DNA of 13,958 bases from a virus, in UHGV virus genome UHGV-0194130; one strand, written 5' to 3'. Numbering within the stretch: position 1 is the first letter of the stretch; each line of letters opens with the position of its first letter. The position numbers are program-made. Positions 1-3,000 of this stretch are shown piece after piece.

Positions 1-3000
1 CTAAGCCGCGTGCTGCGATTCAGGGTTTACAGGCTCTCCGTGGGCTAACACTGCCAGCCCGGCAGCTTTAATATTACGTGCCGCGTTAATGTCGCGATCA
101 TGGTCTGCGCCGCATTCAGGGCAGTGCCATTTACGAACATTAAGAGGCATTTTTTGCATGGTGAAACCGCAGCAACTACAGCATTTTGAGGACGGTAAAT
201 ACTGGTCAATGGCGACCACTGACCGCCCGGCCCATTTGCCTTTGTACTGGAGCTGGCGAACAAGTTCGCTCCAGCCTGCGTCAGCTATTGCTTTAGACAG
301 CTTCGGGTTGCGGATCATGTTTTTCACCTTGAGGGATTCGACGCAAACAACTTGGTTTTCGTTAATCAGTTTGCGGGACAACTTGTGCAGATTGTCCATC
401 CGGCAATCGGCGATTTTCGCGTGGAGTCGGGCGACCTTTAAGCGGGCTTTAATACGGTTTCTTGAGCCTTTTTGCTTCCTGCTTAAACGTCGCTGTAGCA
501 GCGTTAATCGCTTCGCATATTTAGCGGTGTGGCGGGGATTGTCGGTTTTGAATCCGGTATCGGTGACGAATAAATCTTTTAAGCCCACATCAATGCCGAC
601 CGTTTTAGCGGTAACAGGCATTGATACAGGTTCAAACTCACACAGGCAGGAAACAAAGTACCTGCCAGCGCTATCTCTGGAAATGGTAACGGTTGACGGC
701 GCAGATGGTAATTCTCGACTCCAGCGAACATCCAGCGGCGACTTGCTCTTTGCTATATACAACTCGCCGTCACGGTGTTTAAACGCGCTGGCAGTGAACT
801 CAGCCACCTGTTTGTGCCGTTTGCTTTTGAAAGCCGGATATGCAGCTCGTCCGGCAAAGAAGTTAGCAAAGGCGGCTTGTTGGTGGCGCAACGACTGCTG
901 GAGGGGAACGCAGGAAACATCATTCAGCCATATGTATTCAGGCTCTTTTTTGAGCGCCGTAAGGCGAGCGTTGGCCTGTAGATAACCGATCTTTTCTTTT
1001 CGCTCGTAGTACGCATCGGTACGCCAACGAAGGATGGAATTGTAGACGAAGCGCACACAGCCAAACGTCTGAGCTAAAAGCTCAGCCTGCTCAGTTGTCG
1101 GGTAAAACCGGTATTTATATGCGCGTTTCATGTGTTCACATACTAAAGAGGAAAATGTGATTATGCAAAGTACAGTTAGTCGGAAAACCGCCTCCTTTCC
1201 TCCCCGGTCTGAAGGCCGAGGTTTCCCGGAGGCATTCTAATGAAACTCATCAGTAACGATCTGCGCGATGGCGATAAGCTGCCGCATCGTCATGTCTTTA
1301 ACGGCATGGGTTACGATGGCGATAATATTTCACCGCATCTGGCGTGGGATGATGTTCCTGTGGGAACGAAAAGTTTTGTTGTCACCTGCTATGACCCGGA
1401 TGCGCCAACCGGCTCCGGCTGGTGGCACTGGGTAGTTGTTAATTTACCCGCTGATACCCGCGTATTACCGCAAGGGTTTGGCTCTGGTCTGGTAGCTATG
1501 CCAGACGGCGTTTTGCAGACGCGTACCGACTTTGGTAAAACCGGGTACGATGGCGCAGCGCCGCCGAAAGGCGAAACCCATCGCTACATTTTTACCGTTC
1601 ACGCGCTGGATGTAGAACGTATTGATGTCGATGAAGGTGCCAGCGGCGCGATGGTCGGGTTTAACGTTCATTTTCACTCTCTGGCGAGTGCCTCGATTAC
1701 TGCGATGTTTAGTTAATCACTCTGCCAGATGGCGCAATGCCATCTGGTATCACTTAAAGGTATTAAAAACAACTTTTTGTCTTTTTACCTTCCCGTTTCG
1801 CTCAAGTTAGTATAAAAAAGCTGAACGAGAAACGTAAAATGATATAAATATCAATATATTAAATTAGATTTTGCATAAAAAACAGACTACATAATACTGT
1901 AAAACACAACATATGCAGTCACTATGAATCAACTACTTAGATGGTATTAGTGACCTGTAACAGAGCATTAGCGCAAGGTGATTTTTGTCTTCTTGCGCTA
2001 ATTTTTTGTCATCAAAACCTGTCGCACTCCAGAGACGCACAAAGCCTTGCAATCCAGTGCAAAGATTTGTGTGTTTAAATTTTGTCTAAGCATTCTAGTG
2101 AAAACATAGTAAAATCAGTAACGGCTGGAAATCATTCAATACTCGCACTATCGAAAGTTAACCAGCCAGCCGCAGTATCCTATCATGACAAGTTACTGCG
2201 GCTTTTTATATTTAACGGATCAACAGCCAGACCAGCAGACACACCACCACTGGCACAGCAAAATCCAACAAACTTCCCACATCCCACACGCGTGGATCAA
2301 AACCGCCCCACCACGGCATATTCATACGCTTGCCATGCCCGAACATTTCTATCCAGCGATATTCTGCCTGGGTGTGTTCTCGGGATATAAAAAACACACA
2401 CCCTATTACAGCCCCAGTTATCGGATCATTAAATAAACTCAAAAACAGAAACTGTAGCGATAATGATATTAGCACATGAATGAAATGAGATATGTCCATA
2501 CTTACCAACTCAAAAGAATATTTACATCACCTACGCTAATAGGATTTGGTGTGACATTTTGAAATGTTACCCTGACGATATTATCGGAAACAGCAATAGC
2601 ATCTGAAATTATACCTATTGGGAGATCATTCAACACTGTCATTTGTAGAGGAACTTCATTAGATATGATATATCCGGTCAATGTTCTTTGCATTGAGAAC
2701 CTGCCATTTGCTGAAATCGTGCCAACATTCAACGTTGATTTTACTTTCTTTCCTGAATATGTAACACCATTCAAATCTATATGTGAGTTATTTATTAATG
2801 TCAACGCAGAATATCCTGAAAAATCACTATTAGCCCCGGCCTGCCTTACTACAGAGAATTTATCAGCTCGTATTGCAAAGTCACCAGTTGCTTCCGATGC
2901 ATTAATGTTATTGGTAACAACAACACCTCCATCAACACAGTTAATAGCATATGTTGCATTTCCTTTTATCGTTATGTTTCTTAAACTTAAATAAGATGCA

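What the first reader, a model, noticed from the sequence alone, without database searches (positions are those of the whole stretch)
1799..2008. Prophage-host junction is a textbook lambda attR carried by a P22-like virion module
The reverse complement of 1799..1960 reads as lambda P arm, then core GCTTTTTTATACTAA, then bacterial B' arm CTTGAGCG, with the P1/P2 arm-type Int sites in place. The same segment includes the sib/tI hairpin of the lambda b region. Everything from 2.5 kb onward is P22-like. This implies a mosaic phage: lambda-family integration module and b-region end joined to a Lederbergvirus-type morphogenesis module, integrated at the classical attB between ybhC and ybhB. The recombination joint must lie in about 2010..2500.
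Basis: partly seen in the sequence, partly recalled or inferred. Interest (0 to 1): 0.55.

Follow-up and report, generated by a model that had tools for sequence, protein, structure and literature searches.

The report
Lambda attR on a P22-like prophage
This is the right-hand junction (attR) of a P22-like prophage that uses phage lambda's integration site next to the E. coli bio genes; the reading is correct, but this kind of hybrid is already well documented, so it is ordinary.

Summary
Window 1807-2013 is an exact 207-bp copy (reverse strand) of lambda 27738-27532. It holds the 15-bp core (1807-1821), the whole P arm with H2, X2/F, X1, P2, H1 and P1, and the sib/tI hairpin (1960-2010). Identity is 98.2% up to 2073. 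At 1806/1807 the sequence switches to the E. coli K-12 B' arm and ybhB, so this is a true POB' attR. From 2502 onward the genes are P22-like: tailspike head-binding domain, immI-type Arc/Ant genes, gp16, gp20, gp7, gp14, gp26, gp10.

The joint is layered. Exact lambda identity ends just after sib (2013), and all lambda similarity ends at 2073/2074. Positions 2074-2403 belong to an att-distal block common in E. coli lambdoid prophages. The podovirus-specific sequence starts at about 2404-2500.

The source scaffold ends inside the prophage, so int, xis and attL could not be seen for this prophage. Relatives have them: E. coli HB37 has the same flank, Int 99% identical to lambda's, and BOP'. Phage JEP4 (Lederbergvirus) has lambda attP and Int. 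A published P22-like phage, phiHS3, integrates upstream of ybhC.

Already known; interest is low.

The parts
1..1236 (-). IS200/IS605-family element carrying tnpB (CDS 1-1131). It is inserted between the native ybhB ribosome-binding site and the ybhB start codon. It is host context, not part of the att site.
   Evidence: Pfam OrfB_IS605, Cas12f1-like_TNB and HTH_OrfB_IS605. NCBIfam IS200_TnpB, 400 bits. Insertion point found by comparison with K-12. The same insertion is present in E. coli HB37.
1240..1716 (+). ybhB, the host gene on the bio side of the lambda attB.
   Evidence: Pfam PBP, E = 1.4e-41. Annotated ybhB in K-12 and HB37 at the equivalent place.
1717..1806 (-). Host intergenic DNA ending in the B' arm of attB (B' = 1788-1806, read on the - strand as CTTGAGCGAAACGGGAAGG).
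   Evidence: Identical to the K-12 ybhC-ybhB intergenic sequence to the right of the core.
1807..1821 (-). 15-bp common core GCTTTTTTATACTAA, the site of strand exchange.
   Evidence: Exact match. It is the only copy in the window. Equals lambda 27724-27738.
1822..1956 (-). Lambda P arm: H2 1849-1861, X2/F 1881-1893, X1 1901-1913, P2 1916-1925, H1 1927-1939, P1 1946-1956.
   Evidence: 100% identical to lambda. Motif coordinates. Across nine alleles P1 and P2 are 100% conserved, X1 99% and H1 98%, against 68-79% in the spacers.
1960..2010 (+). sib / tI hairpin with its U run. It is transcribed in the window + direction, which is the int-sense direction in the circular phage.
   Evidence: Identical to lambda 27585-27535. 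Fold dG -23.7, z -6.3. Both stem halves are invariant in nine alleles.
2034..2087 (+). Second conserved hairpin (2034-2073) followed by a T-rich tract. All similarity to lambda ends at its 3' edge (2073/2074).
   Evidence: Fold. Present in lambda, in HK106-type prophages, and in JEP4, Gally and HB37, at +36 or +134 to +141 from sib. The T tract is present in all of these except lambda.
2168..2211 (.). Third hairpin (GCCGCAGTA...TACTGCGGC) with a T run on the + strand, lying just after the ORF95 stop codon. It looks like a terminator between convergent transcription units.
   Evidence: Folds on both strands with z about -4.1 to -4.2. The pattern scanner missed it because its loop is longer than 8 nt.
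2212..2499 (-). ORF95, a small protein with hydrophobic ends and unknown function. Its start codon is 2 nt after the tailspike stop codon.
   Evidence: phrog_1443, E = 3e-44. No Pfam or NCBIfam match. Homologues follow the last tail gene in both siphoviral and podoviral lambdoids.
2502..4160 (-). Tailspike. The N-terminal 113 aa are the P22 gp9 head-binding domain. The receptor-binding part is a different module.
   Evidence: Pfam Head_binding, E = 2.4e-66, residues 1-113. phrog_8280 over residues 1-493. HB37 DNA similarity resumes only at 3818.
4293..7148 (.). immI-like region: Mnt/Arc-like 4293-4550 (+), anti-repressor-like 4577-5356 (-), Ant 5394-6116 (-), small Arc 6106-6279 (-), Arc-like 6391-6774 (+), unknown 6771-7148 (+).
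   Evidence: Pfam Arc, Bro-N and P22_AR_C. PHROG anti-repressor families. Gene calls on the source scaffold.
7149..13958 (-). P22-type ejection and tail genes: gp16 7149-9269, gp20 9269-10555, gp7 10555-11268, gp14-like 11201-11590, gp26 needle with knob 11587-12540, gp10 12540-13958.
   Evidence: Pfam Inj_translocase. PHROG DNA ejection, tail needle knob and head closure Hc3. Precomputed Pfam Phage_P22_gp16, P22_gp7, Phage_tail_NK and Phage_stabilise.

Best explanation
Window 1788-2010 is the attR (P-O-B') junction of a P22-like (Lederbergvirus-type) lambdoid prophage. Its integration module is lambda's own, and it sits in the classical lambda attB between ybhC and ybhB.

Shown: the sequence identities, the position of every binding-site motif, the hairpin, the host flank and the P22-type gene content.

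Inferred from established lambda biology (Landy-type model, from my own knowledge). On induction, Int and Xis are made from the other prophage end. Together with host IHF at H2 and Fis/Xis at X1-X2-F, they bend the P arm. Int bridges the arm-type site P2 and the core, pairs attR with attL (BOP'), and exchanges strands inside the 15-bp core. This regenerates attP and attB.

The sib/tI hairpin lies on the P-arm side, so integration separates it from int. In the prophage, pL-driven int-xis message therefore escapes RNase III-initiated decay, and excision is favoured. In the circular phage, sib lies just downstream of int. There it terminates pI transcripts (tI) and destabilises read-through pL transcripts (retroregulation).

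The second hairpin with its T tract (2034-2087) and the third hairpin (2168-2211) probably stop residual int-sense transcription from running antisense into the convergent late operon (ORF95 and tailspike). This last step is my inference and has not been tested.
For: - Exact 207-bp identity to lambda 27738-27532, and 98.2% identity through 2073.
- The switch to the K-12 B' arm falls exactly at the core edge.
- All P-arm motifs are in place and are more conserved than the spacers across nine alleles.
- The sib hairpin is stable, with z = -6.3.
- The virion genes are P22-type.
- E. coli HB37 has the same bioA-tnpB-ybhB-attR flank followed by a P22-like prophage. That prophage ends in xis, an int 99% identical to lambda Int, BOP' and ybhC.
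- Lederbergvirus JEP4 carries Int 99% identical to lambda's, an attP with the lambda core and P' arm, an ORF95 homologue and a tailspike in the same order.
- Lederbergvirus vB_EcoP-720R6 is deposited with bio genes, ybhB, attR and tailspike contiguous.
- At least six complete E. coli genomes in the top hits join this host flank to P22-like genes.
- The P22-like phage phiHS3 was shown experimentally to integrate upstream of ybhC and to excise (bioRxiv 10.64898/2026.05.19.726188).
Against: - The other prophage end (int, xis, attL) is not on the window. It cannot be on the source scaffold either, because that scaffold ends about 8.4 kb beyond the window. Excision competence of this particular prophage is therefore unproven.
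- Only one assembly (the ENA scaffold) spans from the tailspike to attR. Two independent Logan contigs stop at 2296 and 2320, inside ORF95.
- No complete E. coli genome holds 80% or more of the window.
- No RNA family model exists for sib, so the hairpin rests on identity to lambda and on the predicted fold only.
Confidence: 0.88

Rival explanations
1. Orphan attR of a defective prophage. The attR and the virion genes are real and contiguous, but the far end (int, xis, attL) has been deleted or inactivated. The site would then be a fossil that no longer recombines.
For: The far end is not visible. Prophage decay at this locus does occur. For example, the USMARC-51688 prophage has an IS3 inserted between ybhB and the core, and HB37 has frameshifted genes in and next to the prophage.
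Against: All virion ORFs in the window are full length and match their family profiles end to end. The P arm and sib have no mutation relative to lambda. The identical tailspike protein occurs in five contigs, as expected for a mobile, active phage.
Confidence: 0.15
2. Metagenome assembly chimera. A P22-like phage contig was wrongly joined, through the ORF95 sequence shared among lambdoid prophages, to the attR end of a co-resident lambda-like siphoviral prophage at ybhB.
For: Two independent Logan assemblies with the same tailspike break at 2296 and 2320, inside the shared part of ORF95. The window's 1790-2403 block is colinear with a siphoviral allele (L010, 88.7% over 621 bp). It has the short sib-to-hairpin-2 spacing seen in lambda and in the siphoviral prophages, not the long spacing of HB37, JEP4 and Gally.
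Against: The siphoviral-type allele signature of ORF95 (EMFGHGKRM, nt 2349-2323) already lies on the Logan contig that is 100% contiguous with the tailspike, so there is no allele switch at the break. The same overall architecture exists in finished genomes and isolated phages. The window differs from lambda at four positions between 2014 and 2073 and carries a host B' arm, so it is not laboratory lambda DNA.
Confidence: 0.05

Closest known systems
Bacteriophage lambda attR / attP P arm with sib-tI (lambda 27473-27738)
   Same: The core, P arm and sib/tI are 100% identical over 207 bp and 98.2% identical over 271 bp. The attB is the same, with the same B' arm next to ybhB.
   Different: Beyond lambda 27473 the window has no lambda b-region genes (ea59, ea31, ea47). 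It continues into a common lambdoid att-distal block, ORF95 and a P22-type tailspike. The virion is a podovirus type, not a siphovirus type.
Escherichia phage JEP4 (MT740315, Lederbergvirus), and the related vB_EcoP-720R6, vB_EcoP-611R6 and Gally
   Same: The order is the same: xis/int, attP, small ORF95-family gene, tailspike, immI, ejection genes. JEP4 Int is 99% identical to lambda Int, and its core and P' arm are lambda's. The 720R6 record contains bio, ybhB, attR and tailspike.
   Different: Their P arms are 84-88% identical to the window's. They carry an insertion of about 100 bp between sib and hairpin 2. Their tailspike receptor-binding domains differ. Gally has a different core and a 75% Int.
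P22-like prophage of E. coli HB37 (NZ_CP053080, 3.494-3.536 Mb)
   Same: The host flank is the same, including the tnpB insertion before ybhB. There is an attR, then an ORF95 homologue and a tailspike. The gp20-to-gp26 stretch (window 9981-12034) is 98% identical. The far end has xis, a lambda-type int, BOP' and ybhC.
   Different: The P arm is only about 88% identical. The tailspike receptor domain and gp16 differ. The tnpB is frameshifted.
phiHS3, a temperate P22-like phage of E. coli HS (bioRxiv 10.64898/2026.05.19.726188)
   Same: It is a P22-like phage shown by lysogen sequencing and by attB/attL PCR to integrate upstream of ybhC and to excise.
   Different: Its sequence was not compared here. 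[quoted passage not shown]
Salmonella phage P22 integration end (gene 9, gtrABC, attP, int; thrW site)
   Same: The topology is the same: the tailspike is the last late gene, then an accessory slot, then att (my own knowledge of the P22 map). The head-binding domain and ejection genes are homologous.
   Different: P22 uses its own integrase and a tRNA-gene attB. Here that module is replaced by lambda's.

Membership tests
Lambda attR (POB') | 15-bp common core GCTTTTTTATACTAA | tested here: met
   Exact, at 1807-1821 on the - strand.
Lambda attR (POB') | P arm with arm-type Int sites P1 and P2, IHF sites H1 and H2, and Xis/Fis sites X1, X2 and F at lambda spacing | tested here: met
   100% identical to lambda across the whole P arm. 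Motifs located.
Lambda attR (POB') | B' arm and flank equal to the ybhB side of E. coli attB, with the switch exactly at the core | tested here: met
   1717-1806 is identical to K-12. Lambda P' sequence is absent.
Lambda attR (POB') | Partner attL (BOP') and cognate lambda-family int and xis at the other prophage end | not testable with these tools
   The source scaffold ends inside the prophage. The feature is met in relatives: HB37 has BOP' and Int at 99%, and JEP4 has attP and Int at 99%.
Lambda attR (POB') | Supports Int/Xis/IHF-dependent excisive recombination | not testable with these tools
   This needs an experiment. A published precedent exists for a P22-like phage at this locus.
Lambda sib / tI retroregulator | Hairpin sequence and following U run as in lambda, on the P-arm side about 150-200 bp from the core, in int-sense orientation | tested here: met
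   1960-2010 is identical to lambda. Fold dG -23.7, z -6.3. The stem is invariant in nine alleles.
Lambda sib / tI retroregulator | RNase III cleavage of read-through transcripts and termination of pI transcripts | not testable with these tools
   No Rfam model exists. There is no covariation to count because the stem does not vary.
P22-like (Lederbergvirus-type) virion module | Tailspike with a gp9 head-binding domain; gp10, gp26 and gp4-type tail machine; gp7, gp20 and gp16 ejection proteins; immI Arc/Mnt/Ant region, in P22 order | tested here: met
   Pfam and PHROG matches. Precomputed Pfam on the source scaffold, including P22_Tail-4 just beyond the window.
P22-like (Lederbergvirus-type) virion module | P22-type portal, coat, scaffold and terminase | not tested
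   These lie outside the window. They are present in relatives that carry the identical gp10 and in HB37.

The most novel reading that the evidence does not exclude
The 40-nt hairpin at 2034-2073 may be a functional element in its own right. It is conserved in lambda, in HK106-type siphoviral prophages and in P22-like phages, at variable distance from sib. It is followed by a T tract everywhere except in lambda. It could be an insulating terminator that protects the convergent late operon from int-sense read-through, and it could also serve as a recurrent module-boundary crossover point. The adjacent ORF95 family would then be a conserved att-proximal membrane protein with an undiscovered role, for example exclusion or a lysis-related function.
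Probability: 0.2. Interest if true: 0.3.

Novelty: already known. Interest (0 to 1): 0.1.

Why it matters
The finding matters little beyond correct annotation. It fixes the prophage boundary to the base: the core is at 1807-1821. It identifies the integration specificity as lambda attB. It also predicts that in-situ (lateral) packaging from this P22-type prophage would run from the tailspike end into ybhB, the bio operon and uvrB, as reported for related phages.

It is a clean example of the modular exchange of int/att cassettes among lambdoid phages. That principle is long established, and this exact combination is already in GenBank as classified Lederbergvirus genomes.

Tried and rejected
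- Rfam. An E-value search of 1100-2600 and a gathering-threshold search of the whole window found no family; the only hit was a chance mir-184 match at E = 0.82. Rfam therefore gives no independent support for sib or the other hairpins. No tRNA gene was found either, so this is not a tRNA-type att site.
- Terminator scanner. It reported nothing in 1650-2600, because all three hairpins have loops longer than its 8-nt limit. I used folding instead.
- Finding the same prophage in a finished genome. No complete E. coli genome covers 80% or more of the window.
- Looking up the exact tailspike protein. It returned only one ENA metagenome scaffold and Logan contigs.
- Looking up gp10. It returned other prophages, one of them with a different integrase module, and not the window's own scaffold. 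The far end of this prophage therefore could not be reached.
- Laboratory lambda or DE3 contamination. I considered this as the source of the exact identity and rejected it. The sequence has a host B' arm, four differences from lambda in 2014-2073, and no lambda b-region beyond 2073.
- The 'antisense RNA' annotated in phage DN1 next to attR. I considered it and found nothing to support it in Rfam.
- Large protein-database searches and structure prediction for ORF95. I did not run them, because ORF95 is peripheral to the finding.

Full report
**What is at 1799-2008**

The region was read directly and compared with phage records. Window 1803-2073 matches lambda 27742-27473 on the opposite strand at 98.2%, E = 8e-128.

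I aligned the window with lambda, with the uninterrupted K-12 ybhC-ybhB intergenic region and with a related prophage, then checked it column by column. Window 1807-2013 equals lambda 27738-27532 with no mismatch over 207 bp. Four differences follow: an indel at 2014 and substitutions at 2036, 2048 and 2065. From 2074 the sequences are unrelated.

On the other side, the window leaves lambda exactly at the edge of the 15-bp core. The core is at 1807-1821, and its reverse complement is GCTTTTTTATACTAA. From there the window continues as the K-12 B' arm and the ybhB flank, and 1717-1806 is identical to K-12. Read on the minus strand, the order is P arm, core, B'. By the lambda convention that is attR.

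The motifs sit where lambda has them:
- H2 1849-1861
- X2/F 1881-1893
- X1 1901-1913
- P2 1916-1925
- H1 1927-1939
- P1 1946-1956

The sib/tI stem halves are at 1967-1977 and 1992-2002, followed by the U run. As RNA in the int-sense direction (window + strand), the hairpin folds at -23.7 kcal/mol with z = -6.3. The lower part of the stem forms only when the U run has been transcribed, which is the textbook basis of sib retroregulation (my own knowledge). The only correction is that similarity to lambda runs on to 2073.

**Surroundings**

To the left is ybhB (1240-1716; Pfam PBP). Further left is an IS200/IS605-type tnpB element (1-1131), inserted between the native ybhB ribosome-binding site and its ATG.

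To the right, all on the minus strand unless noted:
- ORF95 at 2212-2499 (phrog_1443, unknown function). It starts 2 nt after the tailspike stop codon.
- A tailspike at 2502-4160. Its first 113 residues are the P22 head-binding domain (E = 2.4e-66).
- An immI-like cluster of Arc/Mnt-like and Ant-like genes, on both strands.
- gp16, gp20, gp7, a gp14-like protein, a knobbed gp26 needle and gp10.

"P22-like from 2.5 kb onward" is correct.

**Where the joint is**

The joint is layered, not single.
1. Exact lambda identity stops at 2013, just after the sib U run.
2. In 2014-2073 lies a second conserved hairpin (2034-2073). There the window differs from lambda at four positions, and at 2048 and 2065 it carries the variants seen in the HK106-type prophages. 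This segment is 95% identical to two siphoviral E. coli prophages.
3. All lambda similarity stops at 2073/2074. The comparison shows that lambda is the odd one out here. The window continues colinearly, at 83-89%, with an att-distal block found in 652 of 5426 complete E. coli genomes. Those genomes include lambda-like siphoviral prophages with gpJ, lom and stf.
4. DNA similarity to every allele examined, siphoviral or podoviral, stops at 2403, inside ORF95. The ORF95 N-terminus and the tailspike receptor-binding part (2404 to about 3817) are a separate mosaic piece. Similarity to the related HB37 prophage resumes at the head-binding domain, at 3818.

**Origin of the window, and the far end**

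The window is a 100% match to positions 203-14160 (reverse strand) of the stored stretch of ENA metagenome scaffold VATT16-1_SAMN05827153_METAG-scaffold_124 (43.3 kb). That scaffold ends about 8.4 kb beyond the window, inside the prophage.

Relatives pass the test.
- E. coli HB37 has the same bioA-tnpB-ybhB-attR flank, then an ORF95 homologue, a tailspike, a complete P22-like virion module and lambdoid early genes. It ends with xis, an int 99% identical to lambda Int, a BOP' attL whose P' arm differs from lambda at one base, and ybhC.
- The isolated Lederbergvirus JEP4 has Int at 99%, an attP with the lambda core and P' arm, an ORF95 homologue and a tailspike in the same order.
- Lederbergvirus vB_EcoP-720R6 is deposited with the bio genes, ybhB, attR and tailspike contiguous.
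- At least six finished E. coli genomes among the best hits join this host flank to P22-like genes.
- A 2026 preprint shows experimentally that the P22-like phage phiHS3 integrates upstream of ybhC, excises and performs lateral transduction.
- The P22-like prophage Gally of strain LF82 is described in PMC9928086. Its sequence has a related att region with sib, but a different core and an Int only 75% identical to lambda's.

**How it most likely works**

The sequence facts above are shown. The mechanism is inferred from lambda, and the 100% identity of all cis sites justifies the inference. In the prophage, attR supplies P2, X1, X2/F, H2 and the core for the excisive intasome. Int and Xis come from the other end, and IHF and Fis come from the host. 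Strand exchange in the core regenerates attP and attB.

sib sits at attR, about 40 kb away from int, so prophage-derived pL transcripts of int and xis are not subject to RNase III-initiated decay. After circularisation sib lies downstream of int again.

Across nine alleles, P1, P2, X1, H1 and the sib stem are 98-100% conserved while the spacers are 68-79% conserved. This fits selection on these sites, although the sample is small and two of the nine alleles are lambda itself.

In every allele except lambda, hairpin 2 is followed by a T tract on the int-sense strand. A further hairpin with a T run lies at 2168-2211. I infer that these stop int-sense transcription before it collides with the convergent late operon. 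In lambda, leftward transcription continues into the b-region genes. This step has not been tested.

**Rivals**

*Defective prophage with an orphan attR (about 0.15).* It cannot be excluded because the far end is unseen. However, all ORFs in the window are intact and the att sites carry no mutation.

*Assembly chimera through the shared ORF95 sequence (about 0.05).* Two Logan contigs with the same tailspike break at 2296 and 2320, and the window's att-distal block is of the type seen in siphoviral prophages. Against this, the siphoviral-type ORF95 signature already lies on the Logan contig that is contiguous with the tailspike. Finished genomes also show the same architecture.

*Contamination by laboratory lambda.* This is excluded by the host B' arm and by the divergence from 2014 onward.

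**Comparison with the known, and novelty**

As a cis element this is lambda attR with sib, base for base. As a phage it is a member of the known set of P22-like lambdoids that carry the lambda int/att cassette at the position where P22 has its own (JEP4, 720R6, the HB37 prophage and, by integration site, phiHS3). Exchange of integration modules among lambdoid phages is a long-established principle.

Nothing here is new in kind. The only mildly unexplained items are the conserved hairpin 2 and the ORF95 family.

Verdict: observation confirmed, interpretation supported, already known, interest about 0.1.

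Noticed in passing
window 1-1239: An IS200/IS605-family element carrying an intact 376-aa TnpB is inserted exactly between the native ybhB Shine-Dalgarno sequence (AGGAGGG in K-12) and the ybhB ATG. The end of the element supplies a new GGAGG 7 nt upstream of the ATG. The same insertion, with tnpB frameshifted, is in E. coli HB37, and judging from the hit annotations it is also in YP3, Z0117EC0117 and UPEC_U013.
   Followed up: partly
window 2212-2499 (- strand): ORF95 is a small protein with hydrophobic ends and a near-invariant core: FFIxREHTQAEYRWIExFGxGKRxNMPWWGGFDPRxWDV. 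It matches phrog_1443 and has no Pfam or NCBIfam family. It occurs in 56 phage records (phage 21, Perceval, ev207, Gally, 611R6 and others). In the loci examined it follows the last tail gene, whether the virion is lambda-like or P22-like. Its function is unknown.
   Followed up: partly
window 2034-2087: A conserved hairpin, GCACAAAGCCTTGCAATCCAGTGCAAAG(A/C)TTTGTGTG, is found in lambda, in HK106-type prophages, and in JEP4, Gally and HB37. It lies 36 nt, or 134-141 nt, beyond sib. A T tract follows it in all of these except lambda, where similarity ends at its edge.
   Followed up: partly
window 2296-2320 (ends of loci L007 and L008): Two independent Logan assemblies that carry the identical tailspike end inside ORF95. 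These look like repeat-induced assembly breaks. Only the ENA scaffold links the tailspike to attR.
   Followed up: yes
window 2502-3817: The receptor-binding part of the tailspike is a separate mosaic piece. It best matches phrog_8280, annotated as a colanic-acid-degrading tailspike. It has no DNA match in the HB37 prophage. The exact protein was found only in metagenome and read-archive assemblies, not in NCBI genomes.
   Followed up: no
L015 (phage DN1, MF374379) 1813-1974, equivalent to window about 2012-2073 and beyond: The DN1 record annotates an 'antisense RNA' next to its attR, overlapping hairpin 2 on the strand opposite to int-sense transcription. No Rfam family matches the window here.
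   Followed up: no
L014 (GCA_026420585.1) 16857-21332: A prophage encoding the identical gp10 protein ends with a GDSL-lipase tailspike, an acyltransferase and a different integrase (Pfam Arm-DNA-bind_3). The same tail machine is therefore combined with different integration modules.
   Followed up: no
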